Shown: piece by piece, positions 1-59,036 of the stretch
Layout: every line of letters starts with the position of its first letter
Position numbering within the stretch: the first letter of the stretch is position 1
Source of the DNA: Planctomycetota bacterium
GTDB lineage: Bacteria > Planctomycetota > MHYJ01 > JACQXL01 > JACQZI01
Direction of reading: 5' to 3'
Assembly (NCBI GenBank): GCA_016207825.1
Contig: JACQZI010000005.1
Location: 1,122 to 65,121, forward strand
DNA length: 64,000 bases
The notes under the pieces: generated by a model
Told to the model about the DNA's origin: nothing
What the model saw: only the letters and a program-made list of their open reading frames with translations
Database searches by the model: none
Made by a program: the position numbers and the translations under genes

Positions 1-176
1 CCCACCGGGGAACTTTCCCCGCCTTCCGTAGCTCTTTCCCCGCCCTCCGGGAAACACTCCCCGCCTTCCGCAGAACTTTTCCCGCCCTCCGGGAAACACT
101 CCCCGCCTTCCGCAGAACTTTTCCCGCCTTCCGGGAAACAGTTCCCGCCCTCCGGGGCGGATTTCCCGGGACCGGG
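1..176. repeat. Tandem array with a 21-bp unit and 42-bp super-period, at least 8 units, running to the window edge. On the minus strand the units alternate 'gtttcccggagggcgggaaaa' and 'gttctgcggaaggcggggagt'; the first contains the perfect palindrome TTCCCG-N5-CGGGAA. It lies immediately 3' of the paralog gene at 186..2522.
   Basis: Direct reading: ccccgccttccgcagaacttttcccgccctccgggaaacact repeats three times, with further partial copies. Confidence 0.8.
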
Positions 177-185
177 AGGAAGGGA

Positions 186-2522
186 TTAAGGCGGCACGCC
201 GATAGCCGTGGCGTTTTCGAATTCTAAATAAGAGCTATCCGCTATCTTCACCCCGGCGCGGGTGCCGCCGCTGATATCGCTCGCCAGTTTATACACGATG
301 TAATAGGTCTTGGGAGTGGTTGTTACCTGCCAGCGGTTCATGTTGAGGTAACACGTGCCGTTGGTAAAATTACCTTTGCTGATAAAAGTATCACCTGCGT
401 CCCAGAAGCCGTTAGTATTCGTATCGCACCAGACCTGGACTTCTATCTTACAGGGTGTATTAACGCCGGTAACACCTTTATCTATGCGGAAACGTCTCCA
501 GCGGGTAGTGCCAGCGCCTATTTGCATATTGAACTTGACATAACAAACAGATTGCCCCATTCTTACCGGAGTATTGCCGTTGGTAAGCATCGTCCATGCG
601 GCTGTGGTGACAAGACTGGCAGGGTCCTCGTTTACAGTAATTGTAATTGCCTTGGAATCAGATAGTGTTTTAGACGTGGCGGTAAAAGTGACCATATAAT
701 TCCCGGATTGCGTACCGGAAGGCGTCCAATTAAATATGCCGCTGGCCAGGTTTAACGTTGCCCCTGTCGGAGTTGCGGTCATAGTATACGTTATCGGGTC
801 ACCATCCGGGTCATTAGCAGAAAGCGTAAAGGTTAATAATTGTTTTTCATTTATGCTCTTGTTTCCCGGCGAGGTCAGAACCGGCGGCCTGTCAACTACA
901 TATCCCACATACCAATAGGCTAATTGCGGGGCAACCGTGGTATTAGAGGTGGACAAGTTCGCCCGGAGTTTTATACCGGTGATACTGGTGAATGTCGCCG
1001 GATAAGCAGATGAAAGATTAGTCCCAGAAGAAACATTAGCAACCAATAGTGAATTATTCGACGAGCTTAAGACATCCACGGTCAAGAGTGTGTTAGCCGG
1101 CACACTGATAGTATAAGTCAAAACGCCCCAGGAAGAGACCACGGACGGCGCAATGGCTGAACCCAGGTAACTACCCGGAGTAAGAAATGGCGCCGTTCCC
1201 ACCACAGCCTTCCAGGTAGTCAAGGCGCCGATTTGGACAGGCGAATAGCGGTCGGTATTTGTCCCATCGCCCAAACTACCCAAACCATTATACCCCCAAG
1301 CCCAGAGCGTGCCGTCGGTCTTGACGGCTAAGTTGTGCTGAGTTCCGCAGGCAACTTGTTTCCAAGTGGTAGCGACGCCGACCTGGACAGGCGAGGTGCG
1401 TTGGGTTGTCGTCCCATCACCTAATTGGCCAGAGTTATTCCATCCCCACGCCCAGAGCGTGCCGTCGGCCTTGACAGCTAAGGTGTGCGCAGCCCCGCAG
1501 GCAACCTTACTCCAGGTGGTCAATGCCCCGATTTGGACAGGCGAGGTTCTTTGAGTGTATGTCCCATCGCCCAATTGGCCATTGAAATTATAACCCCATG
1601 CCCAGAGCGTGCCATCCGTCTTGATTGCCATGGTGTAAACATTCCCGCAGGCAACCTGTTTCCAGGTCGTCCCGGCTACCTGGACCGGTGAAAGCCGCTG
1701 GGTAGTCGTCCCATCGCCTAATTGACCCTGTCCATTATAACCCCAAGCCCAGAGCGTTCCGTCAGTCTTTATTGCTACGGTATGATTACCTCCGCAAGCG
1801 ACCTGTTTCCAGGTCGTTCCGGCTATTTGGACCGGGGACGATCTATTAGTCTGTGTCCCGTCGCCTAATTGGCCATTCCAATTATAACCCCAAGCCCAGA
1901 GCGTGCCGTCGGTCTTGACGGCTAAGGTGAAAGCATTCCCACCGGCGACCTGTTTCCAAGTGGTGAGCGCCCCGACCTGGACGGGCGAGTTTCTTTGAAT
2001 GGTCGTCCCATCACCCAACTGGCCATTAGAATTAAAACCCCAAGCCCAGAGCGTACCGTCGGTCTTGATTGCCATGGTGTGCTGAGCCCCGCAGGCGACC
2101 TTACTCCAGGTGGTCAATGCTCCGATTTGAGTTGGCGTGTTTTTATCAAGATTGTAGAGATAAGCCCCATCTCCGTCGTATTGGGCTGTTCCGCCATGGC
2201 CAAGCTGTCCGTATTCACCATAGCCCCAAGACCAGAGCGTGCCGTCTGTCCGCGGGCAGAGGCTGTGGTAAGCGTTTGCTGCGAGGATAAAGGCGGGCGT
2301 CTCCTGGCTGGTGTCTGATGATAGTGTGACCTCGGCAGAGCCGGCAGTGGCAACAGTATTCGTAAATGTGCCGTCGGTAAAGACGGTTTCGGACCAGCTG
2401 TCGGCAGCCAAATCCCAAGCACCAAATCCCAAACTCCAAATAATTAATAATACACAAAATCCAAAATTCCCCCGACGTGCGCCAGGACTACACTTCGCTT
2501 CGCAAACTTTCGTGTTACGCAT
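186..2522 (-). CDS. Exported paralog 1: signal peptide and 'ADSWSETVF' leader, seven or more RCC1-like beta-propeller blades (WxWGxNxxGQLGDG), then the family's conserved C-terminal module.
   Basis: 778-aa ORF. RCC1 blade motifs are visible. The C-terminal 190 aa align with the ends of ORFs 18158, 20542, 44353, 48731, 50696 and 53061 (…RWRRFRIDKG…CPDSKIEVQVWCDTNTNGFWDTGDTFI…YLEFENATAIGVP). Confidence 0.65.
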   Translation of the reverse strand: MRNTKVCEAKCSPGARRGNFGFCVLLIIWSLGFGAWDLAADSWSETVFTDGTFTNTVATAGSAEVTLSSDTSQETPAFILAANAYHSLCPRTDGTLWSWGYGEYGQLGHGGTAQYDGDGAYLYNLDKNTPTQIGALTTWSKVACGAQHTMAIKTDGTLWAWGFNSNGQLGDGTTIQRNSPVQVGALTTWKQVAGGNAFTLAVKTDGTLWAWGYNWNGQLGDGTQTNRSSPVQIAGTTWKQVACGGNHTVAIKTDGTLWAWGYNGQGQLGDGTTTQRLSPVQVAGTTWKQVACGNVYTMAIKTDGTLWAWGYNFNGQLGDGTYTQRTSPVQIGALTTWSKVACGAAHTLAVKADGTLWAWGWNNSGQLGDGTTTQRTSPVQVGVATTWKQVACGTQHNLAVKTDGTLWAWGYNGLGSLGDGTNTDRYSPVQIGALTTWKAVVGTAPFLTPGSYLGSAIAPSVVSSWGVLTYTISVPANTLLTVDVLSSSNNSLLVANVSSGTNLSSAYPATFTSITGIKLRANLSTSNTTVAPQLAYWYVGYVVDRPPVLTSPGNKSINEKQLLTFTLSANDPDGDPITYTMTATPTGATLNLASGIFNWTPSGTQSGNYMVTFTATSKTLSDSKAITITVNEDPASLVTTAAWTMLTNGNTPVRMGQSVCYVKFNMQIGAGTTRWRRFRIDKGVTGVNTPCKIEVQVWCDTNTNGFWDAGDTFISKGNFTNGTCYLNMNRWQVTTTPKTYYIVYKLASDISGGTRAGVKIADSSYLEFENATAIGVPP

Positions 2523-3007: not shown

Positions 3008-5035
3008 TTACCGTTTGGTAACATTAGAGATGGTTATCTTTAATTGTTTTATCTTTTTGGAAAGAGTTGAACGGTCGCTGTTAAGTTGACAAGCCGCTTT
3101 GGTGATATTTCCATTGTTCTTTTTAAGAACTTCTATAATAATACTCTTTTCTATTTCATTACGTAATTCTTTAAGAGGACTATCCGATTTGATAGCAGAT
3201 TGGTTCATATTAATGTAACTCCGGATTGGGTTAGATAGCATTGATTCTTCAATAACATTAACATCCGGATACAATGCGCAGATGCGTTTTATCTCGTTTT
3301 CTAGTTCGCGGATATTGCCGGGCCAGGGGTAGGCGGTGAAAAGCGCTAACGCGCTGGGGGATATGTCAGCCCCGACGTTCGTCGGGACTTCGCTTCGCTC
3401 CGGAATTTCCTTACGGGAAAGAGAGCATTTTCGTAAAAAATGCTGAGCGAGGATGGGAATGTCATCCCCGCGGTCGCGAAGAGGAGGAAGATTGATTATA
3501 ATAGTATTGATACGATAAAACAGGTCTTCCCTGAATAACTTCTGCTTAACCATCTGCTCAATAGTCTGATTAGAGGCAAAGACAAAGCGGGTATCAACCG
3601 GAATAGGTTTTTGTCCACCCACTCTCCAGAGAAGTTTTTCTTCCATAACCCTAAGTAATTTTTGTTGCATAGACGGAGACATATTAGAAATCTCGTCTAT
3701 GAAAAGCGTTCCGCCTGAAGCGAGTTCAATATAACCTTTTTTATCTTCTATAGCGCCGGTAAAAGCGCCTTTGGCATGGCCGAAAAGCGTACTTTCAACA
3801 AGCGTTTCGGGAAGCACCCCGCAATTGAACGGTAAATAGGATTTGTTTATACGCAGGCTATTATTATGTATGGCATTGGCAATAAGTTCTTTTCCGGTTC
3901 CTGTTTCTCCCTGGATTAAAACCGGCATATCCGTAGGAGAAATCTTTTCTATAAGATGATAAATTTCTTGCATTGAGGGGGAATTGCCGACAATGGTATA
4001 TTTATTAACCGAATTTTCGTAACGGTCATCAAGGGTTTGAACCAATATCTGCGGGATAAACCTGGATTCATGTTTGGTTTTACCCTGTAATTGTTGATAG
4101 AGCCTGTCAAATTCCCTGGTTTTTTCATACAGCCAAATCGTATCCAGTTTAGATAAAACAGGCTTTATCCTGTTTTCTATAGAGCTGGCTTTACGCGACA
4201 GCCCTTTAAGAGAATAGCATTTGCATAAAAGGAATCCGGCTTCACAGGCAAGGTTATTTAATTTCAAGCATAATGCTTCTTTCATTATGTCCGGCAAAAT
4301 CCGAAACGCGGAATCCAACTGGTTTTCCAAAAGGTCAATGGCAGCAAGATGTATTTTCGCTTCAAGGATGCCGCGCGGGAAATCCGCTTGCTCGCATGCT
4401 TTAAGGGATATCTGAAAAGACTGGCGTGCCTGGCGATAGTCTTTTATTGACATCAGATACTCGCCTTTAATGTGCATATAATCCATGAAGTATATCTCGC
4501 CGGACGGGGACAGCAGGGAAGGTGAAAGTTTTTGTTCAATAATTTGCCCTGCTTTCCCCAAATCGTTTTTATATAAATAACAATAAGCTAAATTAATCAG
4601 GGTCGAAACATACATTTCCTTATTCATTGGAAACGTGTAACTCGTGAGTTTTTGGCAGTATTGCTCTACTTTATGGAATTGGCTTAAAGCCTGATTGATA
4701 TGCATCATAACCAGGAAATTAAGCCCCATCTTAAACGAAGCATACGCGACGCGAACTTGTTCAAGATTATGTTTTGAAGCGGTTAAGTATGCTTTATAGA
4801 AAGCATCCAGCGAGCGGGCATATTCCGCAAGGCTAAAACAAGCAAATCCCAGATGGCAATATAAAAGGTGTTCTTCAAAAGGCGAATAAGAAAGGGAAGG
4901 GAGTTTCCTTAGCGCCTTTTCGCCCAAACGCTTGGCGTTATCCCAATCCTGTTTATCCAAGGCGGACCTAATTTGTTCCAGACAATCAGATAATGGTTTA
5001 GATTCTCTTCGTTCACTACGAGTGCGTTTTGGCAT
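3008..5035 (-). CDS. Sigma-54-dependent transcriptional activator (EBP) with an N-terminal TPR-like domain, a central AAA+ domain (GETGTGKE Walker A; GAFTGA) and a C-terminal Fis-type HTH. There is no receiver or GAF domain.
   Basis: Motifs are visible in the translation. The true start is probably the ATG (MPKRTRSE) at 5035, because the TTG of the ORF-track start lies inside the -35 box. Confidence 0.85.
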   Translation of the reverse strand: MPKRTRSERRESKPLSDCLEQIRSALDKQDWDNAKRLGEKALRKLPSLSYSPFEEHLLYCHLGFACFSLAEYARSLDAFYKAYLTASKHNLEQVRVAYASFKMGLNFLVMMHINQALSQFHKVEQYCQKLTSYTFPMNKEMYVSTLINLAYCYLYKNDLGKAGQIIEQKLSPSLLSPSGEIYFMDYMHIKGEYLMSIKDYRQARQSFQISLKACEQADFPRGILEAKIHLAAIDLLENQLDSAFRILPDIMKEALCLKLNNLACEAGFLLCKCYSLKGLSRKASSIENRIKPVLSKLDTIWLYEKTREFDRLYQQLQGKTKHESRFIPQILVQTLDDRYENSVNKYTIVGNSPSMQEIYHLIEKISPTDMPVLIQGETGTGKELIANAIHNNSLRINKSYLPFNCGVLPETLVESTLFGHAKGAFTGAIEDKKGYIELASGGTLFIDEISNMSPSMQQKLLRVMEEKLLWRVGGQKPIPVDTRFVFASNQTIEQMVKQKLFREDLFYRINTIIINLPPLRDRGDDIPILAQHFLRKCSLSRKEIPERSEVPTNVGADISPSALALFTAYPWPGNIRELENEIKRICALYPDVNVIEESMLSNPIRSYINMNQSAIKSDSPLKELRNEIEKSIIIEVLKKNNGNITKAACQLNSDRSTLSKKIKQLKITISNVTKR

Positions 5036-15710: not shown

Positions 15711-15738
15711 TTGACAATCACCCATTTTTTCTATATAA
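15711..15738 (+). promoter_or_regulatory. Sigma-70-type promoter (TTGACA…TATATAA) for the EBP gene, with a short leader.
   Basis: ttgacaatcacccattttttctatataaccaatatcATG. Confidence 0.5.
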
Positions 15739-15746
15739 CCAATATC

Positions 15747-17771
15747 ATGAAAACCGGAAAGCCTCTATCCGACCAGCCCGACAGCCTGCCTGCCGGAAAG
15801 GCAGGTCTGGCGGGTTACCTGGAACAAATCAAATCCGCCAATACCAAACAAAACTGGATTCAAGTAAAGCGCCTGGGGAAAATCGTTTTAAAAAACCTGC
15901 CTAATCTGGCTTATTCTCCATCCGAAGAATATCTTTTGTTTCGCCGGCTGGGTGTCGCCCATTATCATTTGGCGGAATATTCAAACTCCCTGGACTTTTT
16001 CTACAAAGCATTCCTGGCCGCCTTCAGGCATAAACTCAACCAAGCCGATATCGCCTGCGCGATTTTTATGATGGGAAGCAATTTTATCGCTATCAGGAAT
16101 ATACCGCAAGCCCTGGCTCATTTCCAGAAAGTGGAAGAATACTATAAAAAATACGGGGATAATAATCCTCCGATGGATAAAGATATCTATATTGATACGC
16201 TTTTAAGCCTGGCGTATTGTTATCTATATAAAAATGATACGGAAAAAGCACGTGAGATTATAGAAGAAAAACTTTCTGTTTACCGGCCGGACGCGTTTGA
16301 CGGAATCAGCTTTATAGATTACACCCACCTTAAAGGGGAATATCTGGCGGCAGCCGAAAAATACGCCGATGCCCGTAAATGTTTTGACGAATGTATCACG
16401 ATGGGAAAACAAATTAACTTCCCGGTAAGCATCCTCGAAGCAAAAATACACCTGGCCCTAATTGATATCATGGAAAGCGAAACAGATAGCGGCATCCAAA
16501 CCTTGCGCGCCGTAATGAAAGAAAGCCGGAAGTTAAAGCTAAACGACCTCTTCTGTGAATCAGGGCTCCTTTTAAGCAAATGTTACATCATTCAAGGTCT
16601 TCCCGATAAAGCCGTGCTTATCGAAAACAGGATTAAGCTTAATTTGTCCAAACTTGACACGGTTTGGCTCTATGAAAAAATGCGCGAGTTCGAAAAACTC
16701 TACCGCCAATTAACCACCGTATCGAAAGTCAAATCGCAAATCGCTCCCGAAATACTCGTTCGCACCCTTAATTCACGTTATGAAAAATCACCCCATAAAG
16801 AAATTGTCATAGGCGTCACTCCCTTAATGCAGGAAATCTGGCAACTGTTAGAAAAAATTGCTCCGACCGATTTGCCCGTTTTAATCCAGGGGGAAACCGG
16901 CACGGGAAAAGAACTCATCGCCCGCGCTATCCACCAAAACAGCCTGCGGGCATCCCGTTCCTGCCTCGGATTTAATTCCGGAGCGGTTGCCGAAACTCTT
17001 TTGGAAAGCACGCTTTTCGGCCATGCCAAAGGCGCTTTTACCGGCGCTATTGAAGAGAAAAAAGGCTATATTGAACTCGCCTCCGGCGGAACGCTTTTCG
17101 TGGATGAGATTGCCAATATGTCGCTTGGTATGCAGCAAAAACTTCTAAGGGTCATGGAAGAAAAACTTCTCTGGCGTGTCGGTGACTCAAAACCAATTCA
17201 GATAGATACCCGTTTTATCTTTGCCAGCAATCAGGATATTGAGCAGATGGTCAAGAACAAAACCTTCCGTGAAGACCTGTTCTATCGTATCAACGCCATT
17301 GTAATTAACCTTCCGCCTCTGCGCGAACGCGGGGATGACATTCCCTTGCTGATAAACCACTTCCTCTCCAAATATAAAACGCATGACGCCCAACGCATGA
17401 CGCAAGACTCACAACGCATAACGCCCGACGCACAACGCCTCCTCTCCTCCTACCCCTGGCCCGGCAATATCCGCGAACTGGAAAACGAGATAAAACGTAT
17501 CTGCGTATTATACCCAAATGCAAAAACCATCGAAGAACCAATACTCTCAGATTCAATCAGAAATTATAAAAAAACGCCCGAACCGTTTAAACAAATCTTG
17601 AACATGAAAGAAGCAACTGATGCCTTCCAAAGGAGCCTTATCATCGAAACGATTAGCCAATGCCAGGGCAATATGACCCAAGCCGCCCGCCAGCTCGGCT
17701 ATGCGCGCCAAAGCCTTTACGATAAAATGAAACAGCTTAAGATAACTCCGGAAACTGTCGTGAAAAAGTAA
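15747..17771 (+). CDS. Sigma-54-dependent activator (TPR-AAA+-HTH), paralog 2
   Basis: GETGTGKELIARAIH, GAFTGA and a C-terminal HTH. An (AQRxT)n low-complexity linker lies between the AAA+ and HTH domains. Confidence 0.85.
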   Translation: MKTGKPLSDQPDSLPAGKAGLAGYLEQIKSANTKQNWIQVKRLGKIVLKNLPNLAYSPSEEYLLFRRLGVAHYHLAEYSNSLDFFYKAFLAAFRHKLNQADIACAIFMMGSNFIAIRNIPQALAHFQKVEEYYKKYGDNNPPMDKDIYIDTLLSLAYCYLYKNDTEKAREIIEEKLSVYRPDAFDGISFIDYTHLKGEYLAAAEKYADARKCFDECITMGKQINFPVSILEAKIHLALIDIMESETDSGIQTLRAVMKESRKLKLNDLFCESGLLLSKCYIIQGLPDKAVLIENRIKLNLSKLDTVWLYEKMREFEKLYRQLTTVSKVKSQIAPEILVRTLNSRYEKSPHKEIVIGVTPLMQEIWQLLEKIAPTDLPVLIQGETGTGKELIARAIHQNSLRASRSCLGFNSGAVAETLLESTLFGHAKGAFTGAIEEKKGYIELASGGTLFVDEIANMSLGMQQKLLRVMEEKLLWRVGDSKPIQIDTRFIFASNQDIEQMVKNKTFREDLFYRINAIVINLPPLRERGDDIPLLINHFLSKYKTHDAQRMTQDSQRITPDAQRLLSSYPWPGNIRELENEIKRICVLYPNAKTIEEPILSDSIRNYKKTPEPFKQILNMKEATDAFQRSLIIETISQCQGNMTQAARQLGYARQSLYDKMKQLKITPETVVKK

Positions 17772-23004: not shown

Positions 23005-23104
23005 CACGAAATCAGTGCGAAGCCTCCCCGACAGGGGGCGAAACTGAAATGCGGAAACACGAAAGATTAATATTCCGTGTTTTCGTGTAACAGAAAGGAG
23101 GTGC
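23005..23104 (+). promoter_or_regulatory. Conserved 100-bp leader, identical at 45703..45834. It contains three CACGAAA / TTTTCGTG complementary segments and the CCCCGACAGGGGG hairpin, and ends in AAAGGAGGTGCGTG.
   Basis: Identical copy after paralog 5. Alternative pairings suggest an attenuator- or riboswitch-like leader. Confidence 0.4.
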
Positions 23105-23421
23105 GTGTTCCCGCAAGGGTATAACCTGTGCCCTCAAGGGCAAAACTTGTGCTCTCAAGAGCAGAACTCGTACCCTCAAGAGCAGGACTTGTGCCCACAA
23201 GGGCAGAACCTGTGCCCGCAAGGGCAAAACCTGTGCTCTCAAGGGCAGAACTTGTGCCCGCAAAGGCAAAACCTGTGCCCGCAAGGGCAAAACCTGTGCT
23301 CTCAAGGGCAGAACTTGTGCCCGCAAAGGCAAAACCTGTGCCCGCAATGGCAAAACCTGTGCTCTCAAGGGCAGAACTTGTGCCCGCAAAGGCAAAACCT
23401 GTGCCCGCAAGGGCAGAACTC
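23105..23421 (+). repeat. Tandem array of about 15 copies of a 21-bp unit with 63-bp super-period: gtgcccgcaagggcaaaacct, gtgctctcaagggcagaactt and gtgcccgcaaaggcaaaacct. It contains the palindrome TGCCCGCAAGGGCA and is followed by the hairpin ccccgaaattcttcgggg.
   Basis: Direct reading. All three frames are open. Frame 1 would encode a Cys-containing heptad (NLCPQGQ)n from a GTG that follows the SD. Confidence 0.85.
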
Positions 23422-23480
23422 GTGCCCCGAAATTCTTCGGGGTACCCCCGATTATATCGGGGAGAAAAGGAGAATTGTTT

Positions 23481-24173
23481 ATGGCAATAATAAAAGGGAC
23501 TAACTATCTCCCGCAAAAGGACGATGATTTCTTCAATTTCCAGGGCAATTTGGTCAACGAGGTCGTAACCAACACGGCTTGGGGCATTATGCCTGCGGCG
23601 GTAACGGCGCTGGTCGCCCGCCGGGCTTCGTATGAGCCGCTCTATACCAAAAGCCAGAATAAAGGCAACCGGACTCAGGCAGACGTCTTAGCCCATCGCC
23701 AGATGCGCGAACTCTATGAAAAGGAAATCAGGGCATTCGTCAAGACCTGGTTGATGTTTAATCCAATGGTTATGGACCAGGACCGCCGCCGGATGCGACT
23801 GACCGTGCGCGATGTTGAACCGACCCCCAGGGGAAAAATCACTTCCTTCCCGATTATCGGGTTAATCGCCGTGGGCGGCGGTTCTATTGAAGTCCGTGCC
23901 CGCGTCACGACCGACCAGACCAGATCCAGTATGCATTCTTTAGCCGATGCCGTGGAAGTGAGATATACCCTTGTGCCAAAAGGCGAGATGCCGCCGGACG
24001 ACCCGGAATCCTGCCCTAAAAATCAGGTATCAAAAAAGGCGCGGTTTTCCATTGCTTGCGGGGTGAAAAATGCCGGAGACACTTTTTACGGGTTTTTCCG
24101 CTGGGTGAACCTGACCAACCCGCAAAACAACAGCGACTGGACGACCAAACCCGAAGGCGTGGTCATTGCGTAG
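23481..24173 (+). CDS. Hypothetical protein
   Basis: AAAGGAG-8-ATG. Preceded by a CCCGATTATATCGGGG hairpin. Confidence 0.5.
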   Translation: MAIIKGTNYLPQKDDDFFNFQGNLVNEVVTNTAWGIMPAAVTALVARRASYEPLYTKSQNKGNRTQADVLAHRQMRELYEKEIRAFVKTWLMFNPMVMDQDRRRMRLTVRDVEPTPRGKITSFPIIGLIAVGGGSIEVRARVTTDQTRSSMHSLADAVEVRYTLVPKGEMPPDDPESCPKNQVSKKARFSIACGVKNAGDTFYGFFRWVNLTNPQNNSDWTTKPEGVVIA

Positions 24174-27158: not shown

Positions 27159-28427
27159 ATGAGAAAACTGATAATGGCTTGTTTAATGATTGGAATAATA
27201 GCGATTCCGTATTGGATTGCGGGAGAAGAAGAAAAAGAATCGCTGTTTGACGAACAGGCTGAACGGTTTAACGGATTGATTAGCCAGCTCGGCTCGGATG
27301 ACTTCGATACACGCCAAAAGGCGCAAGATGAATTAATCCAAATCGGCGAAAAGTTGATTGAAGAATATAAAAAAGTTAAGACTAAGAATGATAATGAAAA
27401 ACTAAAAGCTGAAAAATCTAAAATAAATGATTTTGCTGTCAGCATAAAAAAAACCTGCCAGAATAACGATCCGGAGATAAAAACCAGGGCGAATCAAATC
27501 AGGCGTCATTTTTATTATCAAAATATGCCGGAAATCGCTTTCATTTCCAATGAATCACGTAATTGTGTGATTAATTTGATAAAAATTGATGGGACGAACT
27601 GCCGGCAATTAAAAACAGAATACGGCAATAGCTATTGGCCGGACTGGAGCCCGGACGGCAAGAAGATTGTTTTTACCGCAGAGGTGCAGGGAAACTTTGA
27701 AATCAGGGTGATGGATGCTGACGGGAGAAACGAACGCAGATTAACACGTGATGAAAACAATTCATTATATCCTGTATGGAGCCCTGATGGGAAAAAGATT
27801 GCTTTCCGCAAGGATTCCAAGCAGGGCCGTATAATTTATATCATGGATGCCGACGGTAAAAGCCAGAAGCCTTTGACAGACGATGAAGATATTTTAAAAA
27901 CAATAAAACATATCGCAATAAACAGTGAAGAGATTAGCTGGTCTCCTGACGGCAAAAAAATCGCCTTTGTTTCGGGAATTGATGGTAATCCTGAAATTTA
28001 CACAATAACCACTGATGGAAAAACCCTACAGCGCCTGACTGAAAACCCGGCAGAGGATGTTAGTCCGGCCTGGAGTGCCGACGGCAAAAAGATAGTTTTT
28101 ACATCTAATCGGGATGGTGAAAATAAGATTTGTGTAATGCCTGCCTCGCCGCCCGCCTCGCCGAGCGAGAGCGAGGTTGGGGTAGGCGGGGATGTTAACG
28201 GTAAAGACCAAAGAATATTAACCCAAGGCTGTTCACCTGCTTGTTCTCCGGATGGCAAAAAAATAGCTTTTGTCCGCTCCCATACGATAGACTGTTCTGA
28301 TATCTATATAATGGATCTTGATGGTTCTAATGAGCATAGATTAACCAGCGGGCATGGGGGGCGAGGTTCGCCCTCTTGGAAACCGGGAGGGGTTTATGAA
28401 ATTTCTGAGCTGTTTAAAGAAAGGTAA
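27159..28427 (+). CDS. TolB-like PD40 beta-propeller protein with an N-terminal helical domain
   Basis: Repeated motif WSPDGKKI(A/V)F…DG…EIY(V/I)MDADG. SD aaaggaaag followed by ATG. Confidence 0.7.
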   Translation: MRKLIMACLMIGIIAIPYWIAGEEEKESLFDEQAERFNGLISQLGSDDFDTRQKAQDELIQIGEKLIEEYKKVKTKNDNEKLKAEKSKINDFAVSIKKTCQNNDPEIKTRANQIRRHFYYQNMPEIAFISNESRNCVINLIKIDGTNCRQLKTEYGNSYWPDWSPDGKKIVFTAEVQGNFEIRVMDADGRNERRLTRDENNSLYPVWSPDGKKIAFRKDSKQGRIIYIMDADGKSQKPLTDDEDILKTIKHIAINSEEISWSPDGKKIAFVSGIDGNPEIYTITTDGKTLQRLTENPAEDVSPAWSADGKKIVFTSNRDGENKICVMPASPPASPSESEVGVGGDVNGKDQRILTQGCSPACSPDGKKIAFVRSHTIDCSDIYIMDLDGSNEHRLTSGHGGRGSPSWKPGGVYEISELFKER

Positions 28428-39640: not shown

Positions 39641-39946
39641 CTTATTCTCCTTATTTTCTACGGTGGCACAAACCTTTATTCCCACAGTAGAATATCAGAA
39701 TTATCAGGAATGTCAATCTATTTATTCTGCCTCGTTTTTTTTTGTTATCCAGTTTGACTTTAGCCGTGTTTTATGATATAAATAATATTTTGTAAGCTGA
39801 TTAAGCGGATTGAACCGGTTTGGTTTGTGTATCAGAAAAATCAGATAAATTGGCTTAATCTGCCTCTACCTATTTATTAAATCAGGCGTCCCCGAATCAC
39901 GCAAAGCGGGATGAAAGGGACTTACTTTATTAATCTCTTATGGAAA

Positions 39947-40111
39947 ACGAGAACTGTTTCGCCATTCCAAAGTTAAGTATTAAATCAAAGGCGAACGTGC
40001 TCATTATACCATTGATAGCAGTATGTTAAACGAGCGCTGCTTCGCCATTCCAAAGTTAAGTATTAAATCAAAGGCGAACGTGCTCGTTATACCAATTATA
40101 GCAGTATGTTA
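39947..40111 (+). repeat. Tandem duplication, 2 copies and the start of a third, of an 82-83-bp unit that includes the dinB start codon. It creates two 28-29-codon upstream ORFs whose TAA stop overlaps the next ATG (ATGTTAA).
   Basis: aacgag…ttcgccattccaaagttaagtattaaatcaaaggcgaacgtgctc…agcagtatgtta repeated. Confidence 0.8.
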
Positions 40112-41299
40112 AACGAGCGCTATATCGTCCACGTTGATATGGATGCGTTTTTCGCCGCTATCGAACAGCGGGATAATCCGTCCTTGCGCGGGAAACCGGT
40201 TATTGTAGGTTCCGATCCTAAAGGGGGCAAAGGCCGTGGCGTAGTCTCCACATGCTCATACGAGGCGCGCAAGTTCGGAATCCATTCCGCCATGCCTATC
40301 TCGGAAGCCTATCGCAGGTGCCCCACCGCCATCTTTCTCCCCGTTGATATGGAAAAATACTCGCGCGTCTCAGGCGAGATATTCAAACTGCTCTATGAAT
40401 TCACTCCGGTCATCGAACCCGTCAGCATTGACGAGGCGTTTCTGGATATCACGGAAAGCTATAAAATCTTTGGAACGCCGCTCAAGACCTGTGCATTAAT
40501 CAAGGAACGCATCAAAAAGGAAACGGGATTGACTGCATCGCTCGGGATGGCGCCGGTCAAGATGGTTGCCAAGATTGCCTCCGACCTAAAAAAGCCCGAT
40601 GGCTTTGTCGAAGTGAAAGCGGGCAAGGTGCGCGAGTTCCTGAACCCACTGCCTATCAGAAAACTCTGGGGATTGGGGGAAAAGAGTGAAATCATTTTTA
40701 ACCGAATGGGGATTAAAACCATCGGCCAACTCGCCCGGATGGATGAAGAGAAATTAGTTGAGATACTCGGAGAAAACGGGCGGCATCTGCTCTCCCTCTC
40801 TAAAGGAATCGACCCGCGGGAAGTCGTGACCGAATATGAAACCAAATCCGTCAGCAAGGAATTCACCTTTGATGTTGATACGCTGGATAAGAAAAAGATA
40901 GAAGCGACCCTGATGCTCTTGTGCGAGGGGGTCTCGGCTAATCTGCGCGCGGAGGGATTAAAAGGCCGGACCATCACCCTGAAAATCCGGCTGGAAGGCT
41001 TTGAAACTTACACGCGGGCGGCAACTATAACTGAGCCGACGAACTTCGAGGACGTGATTTACCAGGAAATAAAAACGCTCTATAATAAGTTTGAGACACG
41101 AGGGAAAAGGATTCGGCTTTTGGGGGTGAAGGTTTCGCACTTCGGCGAGGTGGGAATACAAACGAACCTCTTCGAAAAGCCCGACCGGAAAAAGGAAGAA
41201 CTCCACAAGGCGCTTGACGCCATCAAGAAGAAGTTCGGCGATGACGCCATCCACCGCGCCACGGTAATAAAAAATAAAGACGAGTCACAAACCAGTTGA
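40106..41299 (+). CDS. dinB: DNA polymerase IV
   Basis: MLNERYIVHVDMDAFFAAIEQRDNPSLRGKPVIVG and later Y-family motifs. Confidence 0.9.
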   Translation: MLNERYIVHVDMDAFFAAIEQRDNPSLRGKPVIVGSDPKGGKGRGVVSTCSYEARKFGIHSAMPISEAYRRCPTAIFLPVDMEKYSRVSGEIFKLLYEFTPVIEPVSIDEAFLDITESYKIFGTPLKTCALIKERIKKETGLTASLGMAPVKMVAKIASDLKKPDGFVEVKAGKVREFLNPLPIRKLWGLGEKSEIIFNRMGIKTIGQLARMDEEKLVEILGENGRHLLSLSKGIDPREVVTEYETKSVSKEFTFDVDTLDKKKIEATLMLLCEGVSANLRAEGLKGRTITLKIRLEGFETYTRAATITEPTNFEDVIYQEIKTLYNKFETRGKRIRLLGVKVSHFGEVGIQTNLFEKPDRKKEELHKALDAIKKKFGDDAIHRATVIKNKDESQTS

Positions 41300-45702: not shown

Positions 45703-45823
45703 CACGAAATCAGTGCGAAGCCTCCCCGACAGGGGGCGAAACTGAAATGCGGAAACACGAAAGATTAATATTCCGTGTTTTCGTGAATTCTTTTCGTGTT
45801 TTCGTGTAACAGAAAGGAGGTGC

Positions 45824-47086
45824 GTGTTCTCGCAAGGGTATAACCTGTGCCCTCAAGGGCAAAACTTGTGCTCTCAAGAGCAGAACTCGTACCCTCAAGA
45901 GCAGGACTTGTGCCCACAAGGGCAGAACCTGTGCCCGCAATGGCAAAACCTGTGCTCTCAAGGGCAGAACTTGTGCCCGCAAAGGCAAAACCTGTGCCCG
46001 CAAGGGCAGAACTCGTGCCCCGAAATTCTTCGGGGTACCCCCGACCGTAAAAAACTGCTGGAAAACAAAGATTCTAACCAACCCGCATGCTGTCTCTTGG
46101 CTCCGATAATCAAGCCGTTTAGCGATACTTTGAAGGAAGCGTGCAAAAATAAAAACCAGGTGATTAAAGACCGGGCCAATCAAGTTCGCTTGAGCCTTTT
46201 GGCTTCGGTTAAATCAAAAATCATTTACATTTCCGGCAGTGCCTTACATATAAAGGATATAATAGGCAACGATTCCCCGATAATCAATTTTAACGATATA
46301 ACAGATTTGCCATCTATCTGTTCGAAATGCAATATCGCGGTCAATCAGGCTGGAGATAAAATCCTGTTTGTCGGCTATGACCGGGAAAAGAACAGGGATA
46401 TTTATAAGCTGGATATAACAGAGAAAAAATGTTATCGGCTTACAGAAGATACGGCAGATGATTTTGCCCCTTCTTGGAGTCCGGACGGAACTAAAATCAC
46501 ATTTACTTCAACTCGGGATGGCAATGATGAAATATATGTAATGGATGCGGACGGAAAAAATCAAAAGCGTCTTACGGAAAATAAAACTAATGATAGCATG
46601 CCTGTCTGGAGGCCGGATGGCACATTCATTGCTTTTATTTCCGACCGTGATGGAACAAACACCATTTACACGATGAATCCTGACGGGACAAACCAGCAGA
46701 AAGTTCTTAGCCTTAAAGCGGATAATATTTCCGCTCTCGGAATGCATCCGGATGGGACTAAAATCGCATTTGCCTCCAACCGGAGCGGAAAATATGAAAT
46801 ATACACAGCCGGAGGAATGGGCGATGAAATAACACAGATAACCAAATGTCCGGAAGAGTTTGAATTCGTCGGCAGTCCAATCTGGAGTCCGGACGTCACG
46901 CAAATCGCGTTTGCCGCAAAGGTAAAAGGGCAACATGAGATTTATATAATGCCTGCCCGTCCGTCAGGCGGGAATGTGGACGGCTCAAATATGCGCAATA
47001 TAAGCAATAATCCAGAAGCTGACGATCTTTCGCCCGCTTGGATTCCATCCGATTTAAAAAAGCTTTCTATCTTATTTTCAGAATGA
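45824..47086 (+). CDS. TolB-like PD40 beta-propeller protein whose only available N-terminus is the in-frame translation of the 21-bp array, a Cys heptad (NLCPQGQ)n.
   Basis: No ATG, GTG or TTG with an RBS lies between the array and the first PD40 blade. The paralog 27159 has a normal signal peptide instead. Confidence 0.45.
   Translation: MFSQGYNLCPQGQNLCSQEQNSYPQEQDLCPQGQNLCPQWQNLCSQGQNLCPQRQNLCPQGQNSCPEILRGTPDRKKLLENKDSNQPACCLLAPIIKPFSDTLKEACKNKNQVIKDRANQVRLSLLASVKSKIIYISGSALHIKDIIGNDSPIINFNDITDLPSICSKCNIAVNQAGDKILFVGYDREKNRDIYKLDITEKKCYRLTEDTADDFAPSWSPDGTKITFTSTRDGNDEIYVMDADGKNQKRLTENKTNDSMPVWRPDGTFIAFISDRDGTNTIYTMNPDGTNQQKVLSLKADNISALGMHPDGTKIAFASNRSGKYEIYTAGGMGDEITQITKCPEEFEFVGSPIWSPDVTQIAFAAKVKGQHEIYIMPARPSGGNVDGSNMRNISNNPEADDLSPAWIPSDLKKLSILFSE
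45835..46014 (+). repeat. Second copy of the 21-bp tandem array, about 8.5 units, preceded by the same 100-bp leader (45703..45834, with an extra 21-bp duplication) and followed by the same ccccgaaattcttcgggg hairpin.
   Basis: Identical to units of the 23105..23421 array. The copy number differs between the two arrays (15 versus 8.5). Confidence 0.85.
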
Positions 47087-55343: not shown

Positions 55344-55395
55344 GGATGTTAGAATTTTCCGCCAGAGGCGGACTCGCCTTCGGCGGGGAGAATGC

Positions 55396-55428
55396 TACGT
55401 GCATAGGAGTTCCTTAATAATCTAAAAA
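55396..55428 (+). pseudogene. 33-bp orphan 3' fragment of a paralog gene (…ENATCIGVP*)
   Basis: gag aat gct acg tgc ata gga gtt cct taa matches the family's terminal codons. Confidence 0.55.
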
Positions 55429-58744: not shown

Positions 58745-59036
58745 AAGAGCCTACTATCTTTATAATGGAGGGGTACCTTACTATGATGCCATATTTAGCT
58801 TAATTATAATAGATAGCTACCTTACTATGTTGCCATACTTAGCTCTATTATAATGGATAGACACCTTACTATGATACCACGCCTATTTTAATTATAGTGG
58901 AATGGGGCCTTACTTTGATGCCATACTTATTTTAATTATAATGGATGGCTACCTTACTATATTGCCACACTTAGCTTAATTATAATGGATAGGTACCTTA
59001 CTGTGATGCCATACTTGCAATATTTATAATGAAGGG
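58745..59036. repeat. Tandem repeat of about 6.5 units with a period of about 44 bp (taccttactatgatgccatacttagcttaattataatggatagc). Each unit carries a TATAAT-like box.
   Basis: CCTTACT recurs at 58777, 58821, 58864, 58910, 58953 and 58996. The units are contiguous and degenerate with no spacers, so this is not a CRISPR array. Confidence 0.8.

What the first reader, a model, noticed from the sequence alone, without database searches (positions are those of the whole stretch)
23005..23480. Conserved module after paralog genes: 100-bp leader with alternative CACGAAA/TTTCGTG pairings, a strong RBS with GTG, about 15 x 21-bp units, then a terminal hairpin
The same module, in a shorter copy of 8.5 units, follows paralog 4 at 45703-46045. 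Units alternate between gtgcccgcaagggcaaaacct, whose core TGCCC-GCAA-GGGCA is a perfect palindrome, gtgctctcaagggcagaactt and gtgcccgcaaaggcaaaacct (63-bp super-period). The leader contains CACGAAA three times plus one TTTTCGTG, permitting mutually exclusive hairpins as in an attenuator or riboswitch. It ends AAAGGAGGtgcGTG. From that GTG the array reads in frame as a Cys heptad peptide (NLCPQGQ NLCSQGQ NLCPQRQ…) of about 130 aa. Another frame gives an AKP-rich basic heptad (PVPARAK…). The array is therefore either a regulatory DNA/RNA element with variable copy number or a genuinely translated heptad-repeat peptide or N-terminal extension.
Basis: seen in the sequence. Interest (0 to 1): 0.8.

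Follow-up and report, generated by a model that had tools for sequence, protein, structure and literature searches.

The report
Non-coding 21-nt hairpin-repeat gene leader
The 21-base repeats are not a translated cysteine peptide but a conserved, untranslated array of small hairpins, preceded by an unusually long ribosome-binding sequence, that sits in front of one large uncharacterised gene family in uncultivated Planctomycetes; no such element turned up in the databases and literature searched here.

Summary
The sequence features are real: 15.3 x 21 bp at 23105-23427, a nearly identical 9-unit copy at 45824-46020, and a third array cut by the window edge at 1-153 (minus strand). The interpretation needs correcting.

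The module belongs to the downstream gene 23481-24173, not to the upstream paralogs. That gene encodes a 230-aa protein (3-helix bundle + FN3) from a family with 1055 cluster representatives at E<=1e-10.

In all 13 independent loci examined, the family gene is preceded within 20-90 nt by a tandem array with a period of exactly 21 nt (3-15 units). The unit sequence differs between loci. Eleven of them also carry a conserved upstream motif, (A)GAAAGGAGGTGAT, complementary to 10-14 nt of the 16S rRNA 3' tail.

Two homologous arrays have stop codons in all three forward frames. Two others have one open frame but no start codon. Translation is therefore not a conserved property.

Most units share one design: a 7-nt linker N-A-A-[C/G]-Y-Y-G, then a 5-bp stem with a 4-nt loop. 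The stems covary strongly (85.6% paired against 49% in shuffles; all 5 pairs show two-sided changes).

Best reading: a cis-acting structured leader RNA, combining 30S docking with a multivalent hairpin platform. A type-III-antitoxin-like RNP or a dsDNA binding array remain possible. Rfam has no match.

The parts
23005..23091 (+). Proximal leader: two stable hairpins (about 23012-23047 and 23049-23087, the second a 13-bp stem formed by ACACGAAA / TTTCGTGT). It starts immediately after the stop codon of the upstream paralog.
   Evidence: RNA fold (z = -7.4 for the whole module). 100% identical to 45703-45789. The CACGAA/TTCGTG motifs are not conserved in most homologous leaders.
23092..23103 (+). 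Extended Shine-Dalgarno motif AGAAAGGAGGTG, complementary to 12 nt of the 16S rRNA 3' tail (5'-...CACCUCCUUUCU-3'). This is the most conserved piece of the element.
   Evidence: Motif (A)GAAAGGAGGTGAT(T)TG found 8-150 nt upstream of the array in 11 of 12 loci with enough upstream sequence. AAGGAGGTG occurs 3 times in the window against 0.36 expected. Complementarity to the 16S tail rests on established knowledge of the conserved 16S 3' end; no 16S gene was available for these genomes.
23101..23415 (+). Array of 15 x 21-nt modules. Unit 0 is 23101-21; 14 regular units run from 23122. Each is a 7-nt linker (A/G)AAC(C/T)(T/C)G plus the hairpin TGCCC-NCAA-GGGCA.
   Evidence: TRF. Register and pairing (87% of stem positions paired). 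Same 7+5+4+5 design in L002, L004, L006, L007, L009, L011, L021 and L022. Covariation.
23416..23462 (+). Terminal degenerate unit merging into a 10-bp hairpin (23422-23445, GUGCCCCGAA-AUUC-UUCGGGGUAC), followed by a second 7-bp hairpin (23446-23462). No U-tract follows.
   Evidence: No terminator-like site found.
23465..23483 (+). The downstream gene's own ribosome-binding site (AAAAGGAGA) and its ATG at 23481.
   Evidence: Equivalent RBS + ATG lies 20-86 nt after the array in every locus.
23481..24173 (+). Cargo gene: 230-aa protein (= P0001, NCBI MAG Planctomycetes bacterium HY811_00725), an N-terminal antiparallel 3-helix bundle plus a C-terminal FN3 domain. It belongs to a large uncharacterised family.
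45703..46044 (+). Copy 2 of the module without the cargo gene: leader 45703-45810 (with a 21-bp insertion), extended SD 45811-45822, 9 units 45820-46008, terminal hairpin 46015-46038. Identity to copy 1 ends at 46044, inside the second hairpin, where a 5'-truncated PD40 gene begins.
   Evidence: Alignment.
1..153 (-). Third 21-nt array, cut by the window edge. Its units are GGARGGC + GGGAA-NNGT-TTCCC, the same 7+5+4+5 design with a different linker. It follows the RCC1-repeat paralog 186-2522(-). No extended SD is visible.
   Evidence: (83% paired).

Best explanation
The module is the untranslated leader (5' UTR or intercistronic RNA) of the gene that follows it, a member of a large family of ~225-aa proteins (3-helix bundle + FN3).

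Its conserved anatomy is:
1. A stable hairpin.
2. An extended Shine-Dalgarno sequence able to pair with 10-14 nt of the 16S rRNA 3' tail. It is often followed by a mini-ORF of a few codons.
3. 3-15 tandem 21-nt modules. Each is a conserved single-stranded 7-nt linker (N-A-A-S-Y-Y-G in the main class) plus a 5-bp/4-nt-loop hairpin. The hairpin's sequence is free but its pairing is maintained.
4. The gene's own ordinary RBS and ATG.

Proposed mechanism (inferred, not shown):
- A 30S subunit or ribosome docks on the extended SD without productive translation of the array. This shields the 5' part of the mRNA, as STAB-SD does in Bacillus.
- The regularly spaced linker-plus-hairpin modules form a multivalent platform for a trans-acting factor, either an RNA-binding protein or an RNase that recognises the conserved linker.
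- Together these set the stability and/or translation of the downstream cistron.
- Copy number changes in 21-nt steps by slippage or recombination.

Copy 2 in the window is a recent partial duplicate that lost the cargo gene and truncated a PD40 gene.
For: Shown:
- Constant linkage to the downstream gene. 13 of 13 independent family loci have a period-21 array 20-90 nt upstream of the start codon, across protein identities down to ~22%.
- Period exactly 21 in 15 arrays, despite unrelated unit sequences.
- A shared 7+5+4+5 unit design with a conserved linker: A3 invariant, A2 and G7 at least 90%.
- Stem covariation: 85.6% paired vs 49.0 +/- 3.2% in shuffles (0/500). All 5 pairs show two-sided changes. 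Covariation score 0.885 vs 0.26. Slid controls give 37-52%.
- Different stems coexist within one array with pairing kept. Examples: L011 TAGGT/ACCTA and TAGCG/CGCTA; L006; L022. This fits selection on structure rather than on a sequence-specific duplex site.
- The extended SD is conserved in 11 of 12 leaders on the strand of the gene.
- In L013-L018 the element lies between cistrons of a MotA/ExbB...ExbD operon, so it is expected to be transcribed.
- No intrinsic terminator between array and gene in the window, L006 or L007.
- The sense-strand fold of the whole module has z = -7.4, against -4.2 for the antisense strand.
- Not translated as a rule.

Precedent for a non-initiating SD as a 5' stabiliser: STAB-SD with RNase J1 (PMC4113751). 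An RNase Y gene is seen in this lineage (L007).
Against: - There are no expression data. Transcription of the array, 30S binding and any effect on the downstream gene are all inferred.
- The G.U versus A.C count in stems does not single out the sense strand (12 vs 8). Unit hairpins are equally stable on both strands. The pairing constraint alone therefore cannot distinguish RNA from DNA.
- No promoter could be placed.
- A pure barrier or stabiliser role does not explain the strict 21-nt period or the conserved linker. The trans factor is unidentified.
- The encoded protein has no recognisable nucleic-acid-binding fold.
- Some arrays (L001, L005, L013, L024, window 1-153) use other linkers or weaker hairpins.
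- L024 and the window 1-153 array show no extended SD in the sequence available.
Confidence: 0.55

Rival explanations
1. Type-III-toxin-antitoxin-like ribonucleoprotein. The repeat RNA is transcribed from upstream of the protein gene and cut at the conserved linker into 21-nt hairpin units. These units bind and neutralise or assemble with a protein partner: the FN3 protein, the tail-fibre-like protein that usually follows it, or a host protein.
For: - The gene order matches type III TA loci: tandem repeat array, then a palindromic hairpin, then a protein gene (PMC3401426).
- The arrays are locus-specific in sequence, and two paralogous loci of one genome carry different arrays (L004 vs L006, both GCA_043801445.1).
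- The family is multi-copy and sits in varied contexts, sometimes near integrases or transposases (L009, L021).
- A short A-rich motif conserved inside every unit could be a cleavage site.
Against: - The protein is a 3-helix bundle + FN3, not a ToxN/AbiQ/CptN-type endoribonuclease. It has no PADLOC hit.
- Units are 21 nt in 3-15 copies, against 31-62 nt in 1.9-5.6 copies for the known families.
- No terminator-like site lies between array and gene.
- The extended SD has no counterpart in type III systems.
- The conserved part is the linker, which is shared by many loci. That argues against strictly cognate recognition.
Confidence: 0.15
2. Double-stranded DNA element: an iteron-, operator- or centromere-like array of dyad-symmetric protein-binding sites spaced two helical turns apart (21 bp). 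It would control transcription of the downstream gene or act in DNA transactions.
For: - The period of 21 bp equals 2 x 10.5 bp.
- Each unit contains a 5-4-5 inverted repeat.
- There is no strand bias in G.U vs A.C mismatches or in hairpin stability.
- The arrays lie directly upstream of a gene and differ between loci, as iterons and parC sites do.
- Sigma-54 activator genes lie nearby in the window and in L011.
Against: - Within one array, different stems coexist with complementarity kept. A sequence-specific dimeric binder would not tolerate that.
- The conserved part is the asymmetric linker, not the dyad.
- The element sits between cistrons of an operon in L013.
- The adjacent conserved motif is a perfect 16S-tail complement on the coding strand. 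A DNA model does not explain this.
- No Rep-, ParR- or HTH-like fold is found in the adjacent protein.
- A sigma-54 -24/-12-like match (TGGCA-N7-TGC) exists only in the window's units, read from the sequence.
Confidence: 0.15
3. Selectively neutral or selfish repeat: a minisatellite or BOX/REP-like mosaic element that happens to lie in this intergenic region and spreads by recombination.
For: - Copy-number variation in whole units.
- Copy 2 in the window is a recent duplicate with sharp boundaries and no cargo gene, and it disrupts a PD40 gene.
- The tripartite layout (leader, n repeats, terminal hairpin) recalls pneumococcal BOX elements (own knowledge).
Against: - Position, period, orientation, linker motif and stem pairing are conserved over protein divergence down to ~22-45% identity.
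- The arrays are not dispersed. In ~150 kb of fetched loci, period-21 arrays occur almost only in front of the family gene.
- The array is identical in six independent samples of one locus (L013-L018), so it is not hypermutable.
Confidence: 0.07
4. One reading: the array is translated from the GTG at 23105 into a Cys-rich heptad-repeat peptide (NLCPQGQ)n. In copy 2 this would be an N-terminal extension of the PD40 protein.
For: - In the window the frame set by GTG 23105 is open for 132 codons after a strong SD.
- L001, L002 and L004 also have a start codon in frame with an open array frame.
- Several variable positions are synonymous in that frame.
Against: - No homologue in 5.8 billion proteins.
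- L011 and L006 are closed in all three frames. L009 and L005 have no start codon. L005, L006, L007, L009 and L013 have SD-proximal starts that hit a stop after 2-18 codons.
- The heptads have unrelated compositions (NLCPQGQ, FFPDRAD, GTPSNSG, TTRSEVD).
- The GTG lies only 3 nt after GGAGG, and the GTGAT of the motif is explained by 16S complementarity.
- The 'synonymous' sites are the sites that vary in untranslatable arrays too.
Confidence: 0.03

Closest known systems
ToxI / type III toxin-antitoxin antitoxin arrays (toxIN, cptIN, tenpIN)
   Same: A tandem array of short direct repeats that forms structured RNA. It lies immediately upstream of, and in the same orientation as, a protein gene, with a palindromic hairpin in between. 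Array sequences are specific to each locus (PMC3401426).
   Different: - Units are 21 nt in 3-15 copies, against 31-62 nt in about 2-5.6 copies.
- Units are simple 5-bp hairpins plus a linker, not pseudoknots.
- No terminator-like U-tract is present.
- The downstream protein is a 3-helix bundle + FN3, not a ToxN-like endoRNase.
- An extended SD precedes the array.
- No toxicity or processing has been shown.
STAB-SD 5' mRNA stabiliser of Bacillus thuringiensis cry3A (Agaisse & Lereclus 1996; Mathy et al. 2007, as reviewed in PMC4113751)
   Same: A Shine-Dalgarno-like sequence (GAAAGGAGG) perfectly complementary to the 16S 3' end. It lies in the 5' UTR more than 100 nt upstream of the real start codon and is not used to start the downstream ORF.
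   Different: - Here the complementarity is longer (10-14 nt).
- It is often followed by a mini-ORF.
- It is always coupled to a hairpin-repeat array.
- The lineage is Planctomycetota, where RNase J-dependent decay has not been examined here.
- A stabilising effect has not been tested.
Multi-site protein-binding leader or sponge RNAs (TRAP-binding (G/U)AG repeats of the trp leader; CsrB/RsmZ hairpin arrays)
   Same: Many regularly repeated short single-stranded motifs, presented between or on hairpins, could give multivalent binding of one factor (own knowledge).
   Different: - The motif is N-A-A-S-Y-Y-G rather than GAG/UAG or GGA.
- The period is a strict 21 nt.
- No binding protein has been identified.
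BOX elements of Streptococcus pneumoniae / REP-BIME elements of enterobacteria
   Same: A modular intergenic structure of head, variable number of tandem hairpin-forming units, and tail. They lie next to gene ends and vary in copy number (own knowledge).
   Different: Those elements are dispersed at over 100 unrelated intergenic sites with one conserved sequence per genome. Here each array has its own sequence and is tied to one gene family.
Plasmid iterons / type II partition centromeres (parC, about 20-bp tandem repeats)
   Same: Direct repeats spaced about two helical turns apart, 4-12 copies, upstream of an operon, with sequences specific to each replicon (own knowledge).
   Different: - The loci are chromosomal and, in one case, intercistronic.
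- Stems vary within a single array.
- The neighbouring protein has no Rep- or ParR-type fold.
- A conserved 16S-complementary motif lies alongside.

Membership tests
Type III toxin-antitoxin system | Tandem array of nucleotide repeats directly upstream of the protein gene, same orientation | tested here: met
   array 20-90 nt upstream in 13 of 13 loci.
Type III toxin-antitoxin system | Toxin is a ToxN/AbiQ/CptN/TenpN-type endoribonuclease (Kid/MazF-like fold) | tested here: not met
Type III toxin-antitoxin system | Rho-independent terminator between repeats and toxin gene | tested here: not met
   Hairpins are present in some loci but carry no U-tract. The scan finds no terminator-like site in the window, L006 or L007. 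The scan is a simple consensus, so a weak or atypical terminator cannot be excluded.
Type III toxin-antitoxin system | Repeat unit 31-62 nt, about 2-5.6 copies, processed by the toxin into single units | tested here: not met
   Units are 21 nt in 3-15 copies, against the ranges given in PMC3401426. Processing cannot be tested with these tools.
STAB-SD-type 5' mRNA stabiliser | SD-like sequence complementary to the 16S rRNA 3' end, located in the untranslated leader far from the start codon of the gene | tested here: met
   (A)GAAAGGAGGTGAT lies 226-384 nt upstream of the ATG in 11 of 12 leaders. The 16S tail sequence is taken from general knowledge; no 16S gene is present in the data.
STAB-SD-type 5' mRNA stabiliser | Binds 30S without directing translation of the gene, and increases mRNA half-life by blocking 5'-3' decay | not testable with these tools
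   Needs toeprinting and mRNA half-life assays. The only available fact is that SD-proximal ORFs are 2-18 codons long or absent in 7 loci.
Translated repeat peptide / RiPP-like precursor | Open reading frame with start codon conserved across homologous loci; peptide-level conservation | tested here: not met
   no homologues; L011 and L006 closed in all frames; L009 and L005 without a start codon.
CRISPR array | Repeats separated by unique spacers; cas genes nearby | tested here: not met
   Units are head-to-tail with no spacers. No cas domains were found among the neighbours scanned.
Iteron / centromere-like dsDNA repeat array | Near-identical direct repeats bound sequence-specifically by an adjacent Rep/ParR/ParB-type DNA-binding protein | tested here: inconclusive
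   The period of 21 bp and the dyads fit. However, stems differ within arrays with compensation, and the adjacent protein has no DNA-binding fold. DNA binding by another factor was not tested.
Any Rfam family (release 15) | Covariance-model match at gathering threshold | tested here: not met
   Window and 12 loci: no hit in the elements. In E-value mode only chance-level miRNA and engA hits well below their gathering scores.
BOX/REP-like dispersed intergenic mosaic element | Many dispersed copies of one consensus at unrelated intergenic sites of a genome | tested here: not met
   The leader and 21-mer occur only at the two modules in 64 kb. Arrays in other loci each have their own sequence and one fixed neighbour. 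The rest of the 201-kb contig could not be scanned.

The most novel reading that the evidence does not exclude
The arrays define a previously unrecognised class of bacterial RNA element: a strict 21-nt 'linker + hairpin' repeat RNA with an rRNA-tail-complementary head. It would be processed or coated as a multivalent ribonucleoprotein and be functionally coupled to a family of more than 1000 FN3/fibre cassettes in Planctomycetota. Possible roles are an RNA antitoxin-like or assembly/scaffold RNA for a phage-tail-fibre-like surface structure, or a 30S-sequestering regulatory RNA. In either case it would be more than a passive leader.
Probability: 0.2. Interest if true: 0.85.

Novelty: new variant of a known kind. 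Interest (0 to 1): 0.6.

Why it matters
If the reading is right, a gene family with over a thousand 50%-identity clusters in uncultivated Planctomycetota (Brocadiia-related MAGs and many groundwater or sediment metagenomes) carries an obligatory, highly stereotyped non-coding element. That element is absent from Rfam and has no homologue found by the searches run here.

It has several features of wider interest:
- It combines an rRNA-tail-complementary 'super-SD', previously known mainly from Firmicutes mRNA stabilisers, with a repeat RNA architecture otherwise known from type III toxin-antitoxin systems.
- It offers a clean natural example of concerted evolution, in which hairpin sequence drifts freely while period, linker and pairing are held.
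- It is a warning for annotation. Gene callers already call spurious 50-170-aa 'proteins' on these arrays, for example the 52-54-aa genes in L004 and L015-L018.

The element is easily testable, since short synthetic arrays and reporter fusions would suffice.

Tried and rejected
- **Peptide homology search.** The 132-aa ORF gave nothing.
- **Exact look-ups of window proteins.** These failed with DNA references. The genome was later identified through P0001.
- **Leader motif scan.** TTTCGTGTAACAGAAA(N)GGAGG gave 0 hits in viral and metagenome contigs. That leader 3' part is shared only with L001.
- **Paralog C-terminal domain as anchor.** It found only L001-L003. It also proved to be the wrong anchor, because the domain lies upstream of the array in only 3 loci.
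- **Sigma-54 promoter or enhancer idea.** GGCA-N7-TGC at unit junctions is present only in the window's own units, so I dropped it.
- **DGR connection.** Avd-TR-RT lies next to the array in L001 and L002 but is absent from all other loci (vs 46-56).
- **Rep/ParR/iteron and ToxN ideas for the 230-aa protein.** Fold searches give only FN3 and generic 3-helix bundles.
- **Ribosomal protein S15 lead.** The PDB profile search gave E = 0.19; hhalign then gave probability 0.2%, so I rejected it.
- **Strand assignment.** G.U vs A.C counts (12 vs 8) and sense/antisense hairpin energies were both inconclusive.
- **Loop-linker pseudoknot pairing.** Checked by eye. It is not consistent across arrays.
- **Promoter and terminator scans.** Searches found nothing above shuffles.
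- **tblastn of the protein in phage and plasmid collections.** No match.
- **Literature searches** for 21-bp or stem-loop tandem repeats in Planctomycetes or Brocadia. No papers found.
- **afdb50 fold library.** Unavailable.
Full report
**1. What is in the window**

Tandem Repeats Finder reports a 21-bp array at 23106-23427 (15.3 copies) with a 63-bp super-period (4.9 copies, 90% matches). It reports a second array at 45833-46020 (9.0 copies).

The consensus 21-mer with up to 3 mismatches matches 15 times, only in these two places. Dinucleotide shuffles give none. The first 61 nt of the leader occur exactly twice with no mismatch.

A pairwise alignment shows the two modules are virtually identical from the stop codon of the upstream gene (CCG TAA) to GGGGTACCCCCGA. 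The exceptions are a 21-bp insertion in the copy-2 leader, a 126-bp (six-unit) length difference and two substitutions. The coding sequence just upstream is only about 78% identical.

The leader ends in AGAAAGGAGGTG-C-GTG (23092-23107). The GTG frame is open for 132 codons, (NLCPQGQ)n. A 10-bp hairpin (23422-23445) and a 7-bp hairpin (23446-23462) close the module.

- CACGAAA occurs twice rather than three times in copy 1.
- The 'palindrome' is a 5-bp inverted repeat around a 4-nt non-palindromic centre.
- A third 21-bp array was overlooked. It lies on the minus strand at 1-153, after the RCC1-repeat paralog 186-2522, and is cut by the window edge.

**2. The module belongs to the gene downstream, not to the paralogs upstream**

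Seven genes in the window share a ~115-aa C-terminal domain. Only three of them are followed by an array.

Searching public genomes and metagenomes with that domain found two good relatives. These are L001, a Candidatus Brocadiia MAG, and L002. Both had a 21-bp array after the paralog, but with completely different units: TTCCCCGATAGGGCGGATTTC and GGGAACTCCCTCTAACCCAGG. Both were followed by a homologue of the window gene 23481-24173.

A profile of that 230-aa protein retrieved 291 homologues. One of them is the window's own protein: P0001, NCBI MAG 'Planctomycetes bacterium' HY811_00725, on a 201,771-bp contig. An exhaustive profile search counts 3095 cluster representatives at E<=1e-3 and 1055 at E<=1e-10, nearly all 220-245 aa.

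I fetched the contigs of nine further homologues. In every locus with upstream sequence (L004, L005, L006, L007, L009, L011/L012, L013-L018, L021, L022/L023, L024/L025), a tandem array of period exactly 21 lies 20-86 nt before the start codon. Copy numbers run from 3 to 11, and the unit sequence is again different each time.

The upstream neighbours are unrelated. They include RCC1/fn3, CHAT, abhydrolase, bPH, a response regulator, a C1 peptidase, and a MotA/ExbB operon. The paralog C-terminal domain is upstream only in the window, L001 and L002. The constant partner is therefore the downstream gene.

Copy 2 in the window lacks that gene. Identity to copy 1 stops inside the second terminal hairpin. 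What follows is a PD40 beta-propeller gene that lacks the signal peptide and the first ~95 residues of its paralog at 27160-28427. Copy 2 is thus a recent partial duplicate, and the in-frame fusion is a scar.

**3. It is not a translated heptad peptide**

- The 132-aa product has no homologue among 5.8 billion proteins.
- A frame-by-frame test of eleven arrays shows L011 and L006 have stop codons in all three forward frames.
- L009 and L005 have a single open frame with no ATG/GTG/TTG before or in the first unit.
- In L005, L006, L007, L009 and L013 the start codons next to the SD run into a stop after 2-18 codons.
- Over the eleven arrays the mean number of open forward frames is 1.45. That is no more than the roughly 2.1 I estimate for stop-free 7-codon units in random sequence, so open frames are not enriched.
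- The deduced heptads are unrelated (NLCPQGQ, FFPDRAD, GTPSNSG, TTRSEVD, ITRSVNA).
- The variable positions that look synonymous in the window's GTG frame are CTG/TTG, CCN and CAA/CAG. They fall on linker positions 1, 5 and 6 and on loop position 1, the same positions that vary in arrays that cannot be translated.

**4. What is conserved**

(a) *An extended Shine-Dalgarno motif.* (A)GAAAGGAGGTGAT(T)TG lies 8-150 nt upstream of the array in 11 of 12 leaders. It is degenerate in L021 (GGATG). It is not visible in the short upstream sequence of L024 or at the window 1-153 array.
- By established knowledge of the conserved 16S rRNA 3' end (5'-GAUCACCUCCUUUCU-3'), this motif is a 10-14-nt perfect complement. 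The window has 12 nt.
- No 16S gene was available to check this directly.
- The GTG in GGAGGTG is part of this complementarity rather than a usable start codon.
- In several loci a TTG or GTG 4 nt further on opens a mini-ORF that ends at a conserved ACCGTAG/A: Met-Arg-Pro-stop in L006 and L007, Met-Lys-Pro-stop in L013.
- A stable hairpin usually lies just 5' of the motif. In L007 and L004 the predicted fold pairs the SD with a downstream UUUCCUU stretch.

(b) *A common unit design.* In the window, L002, L004, L006, L007, L009, L011, L021 and L022 each 21-nt unit has three parts: a 7-nt linker N-A-A-[C/G]-Y-Y-G, a 5-bp stem, and a 4-nt loop.
- In an ungapped alignment of 32 distinct units, linker position 3 is an invariant A, and positions 2 (A) and 7 (G) are at least 90% conserved.
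- The stems are different sequences (TGCCC/GGGCA, GGGGG/CCCTC, TAGGT/ACCTA, TAGCG/CGCTA, GGAGT/GCTCT, AGTTG/CAACC and others), but they stay complementary.
- 85.6% of cells pair, against 49.0 +/- 3.2% in shuffles (0 of 500 reach the observed value).
- All five pairs show changes on both sides, in 64 cells against 27.9 expected.
- The covariation score is 0.885 against 0.26. Slid controls give 37-52%.
- Different stems coexist in one array (L011, L006, L022), with pairing preserved.
- Related proteins carry related stems. L009, L011 and L021 are 72-80% identical and share stem types. The arrays therefore descend with the gene and drift by compensatory change and unit turnover.
- Other arrays (L013/L024 with linker CCGGCTTGA; L001; L005; window 1-153 with linker GGARGGC) keep the 21-nt period but use other linkers.

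(c) *The gene's own ordinary RBS and ATG* follow the array.

**5. RNA or DNA?**

The pairing constraint by itself does not decide. Among mismatched stem positions there are 12 G.U (sense) against 8 A.C, which would be G.U on the antisense strand. Single-unit hairpin energies are the same on both strands.

Several arguments favour sense RNA:
- The 16S-complementary motif is always on the coding strand.
- In L013-L018 the element lies between cistrons of a MotA/ExbB - ExbD operon.
- No terminator-like site separates array and gene.
- Stem heterogeneity with compensation inside one array fits selection on structure rather than on a duplex recognition sequence.
- The whole-module fold is more exceptional on the sense strand (z = -7.4 against -4.2).

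I put RNA at roughly 3:1 over dsDNA.

**6. The associated proteins**

The 230-aa protein is predicted with high confidence (pLDDT 90.6) as an antiparallel 3-helix bundle (residues 14-104) followed by an FN3 domain (120-230).
- They return generic helical bundles for the N-terminal domain modelled alone.
- There is no hit in Pfam, NCBIfam, PHROGs or PADLOC.
- There is no hit in phage or plasmid collections.
- A marginal S15 hit was rejected by hhalign.

In eight loci the gene is followed by a conserved protein with 10-residue repeats resembling phage tail fibres. The window lacks it. Nothing in these folds indicates nucleic-acid binding or nuclease activity.

**7. Mechanism**

What is shown:
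- A conserved, untranslated, structured element.
- Obligatory linkage to one gene family.
- An rRNA-complementary head.
- A strictly periodic linker-hairpin body with copy-number variation: 15 vs 9 units within the window, and 11.3 vs 10.3 between two samples of one locus. It is nevertheless stable, being identical in six samples of another locus.

What is inferred:
- The extended SD docks a 30S subunit or ribosome without productive translation. This protects or marks the 5' part of the mRNA, as STAB-SD does against RNase J1 (PMC4113751). An RNase Y gene is present in this lineage.
- The evenly spaced conserved linkers between hairpins offer multiple sites to a trans-acting factor that controls the stability or translation of the downstream cistron.

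The strict period follows from the unit geometry (7+5+4+5), not from codons.

Rivals:
- A type-III-antitoxin-like processed RNA. The architecture matches, but protein fold, unit size and terminator do not.
- A dsDNA binding array.
- A neutral or selfish repeat.
- The peptide model.

**8. Novelty**

Rfam 15 has no match at gathering thresholds in the window or in 12 loci. It gives only chance-level hits in E-value mode. Literature searches found nothing on such repeats in Planctomycetes.

The element combines features of known kinds: a non-initiating SD stabiliser, and a tandem-repeat structured RNA upstream of a protein gene. It fails the defining tests of each family, so I file it as a new variant of a known kind. 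There is a real chance, about 0.2, that it is a functionally new RNP class.

**9. Limits**

- There are no expression data.
- Only 13 independent loci out of more than 1000 family members were inspected.
- The 16S tail sequence is assumed from general knowledge.
- The left-hand array is cut by the window edge.
- The rest of the 201-kb source contig could not be read.

Noticed in passing
window 17378-17438 (inside CDS 15711-17771, +); also L013 3611-3651: A 2.9 x 21-bp in-frame repeat (THDAQRM TQDSQRI TPDAQRL) sits inside a sigma-54 activator gene, between the AAA+ and HTH parts. A similar 2 x 21-bp repeat lies inside a CDS in L013. Period-21 duplications therefore also occur in coding DNA of these genomes.
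   Followed up: no
window 58760-59031: An AT-rich non-coding tandem repeat: 6.2 x 44 bp with a 132-bp super-period. It is followed by a G-rich stretch (GGTAGGAGGGGGGTAGGGGTATGGGGGTAGG). Function unknown.
   Followed up: no
window 39945-40121: Two copies of an 83-bp repeat (93% identical) that overlap the start of the dinB-like (impB/mucB) gene 40106-41299.
   Followed up: no
L001 143-2553 and L002 6-2469: A complete diversity-generating retroelement (VR-bearing gene end, Avd-like four-helix-bundle gene, TR, reverse transcriptase) lies immediately upstream of the paralog + array + FN3 gene in both loci. It is not present at the other loci.
   Followed up: partly
window 55388-55414; L001 about 3417-3451; L002 3441-3773: Orphan remnants of the paralog C-terminal domain (ENATCIGVP*, DNTEVSNDNF*, and a 110-aa fragment) lie just downstream of intact paralogs. 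This suggests repeated recombination or cassette replacement at these 3' ends.
   Followed up: partly
window 23005-23088 and 45703-45808; L001 3451-3486; L002 2471-2489; L004 4701-4734; L005 6210-6270: Clusters of short CACGAA(N) / TTCGTG repeats that form hairpins occur right after stop codons in several loci. They look like a separate, lineage-typical 3'-end motif rather than part of the 21-nt element.
   Followed up: partly
window 45824-47086: A PD40 beta-propeller ORF lacks the signal peptide and ~95 N-terminal residues of its paralog 27160-28427 and has no RBS of its own. It is probably a pseudogene, or an accidental fusion created by insertion of module copy 2.
   Followed up: yes
L001 4568-5485, L004 4829-5710, L005 5006-6202, L006 4780-5571, L009 4774-5622, L022 3295-4014, L024 1259-2401: A conserved protein beginning M-x-L-x-P-N-E-V-K-T-E-H-I, with 10-residue GAVTxxKIxD repeats (PHROG tail-fibre hits), follows the FN3 gene in most loci. 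Together they form a two-gene cassette. The window copy lacks it.
   Followed up: partly
L004 3037-3525 and 3599-3757; L015-L018 3779-3943: Gene callers have annotated ORFs on repeat DNA: a 162-aa 'gene' made of 45/90-bp repeats upstream of the L004 leader, and 52-54-aa 'genes' lying on the leader or on the 21-nt arrays themselves. These are probably spurious.
   Followed up: no
L013-L020: One family member sits inside a TPR - MotA/ExbB - 251-aa - [array] - FN3 - ExbD - ExbD - secretin-like operon. In the window the upstream paralog carries DUF2341, a MotA/ExbB-associated domain. This hints at a link with a Ton/Tol-like export or motor system.
   Followed up: no
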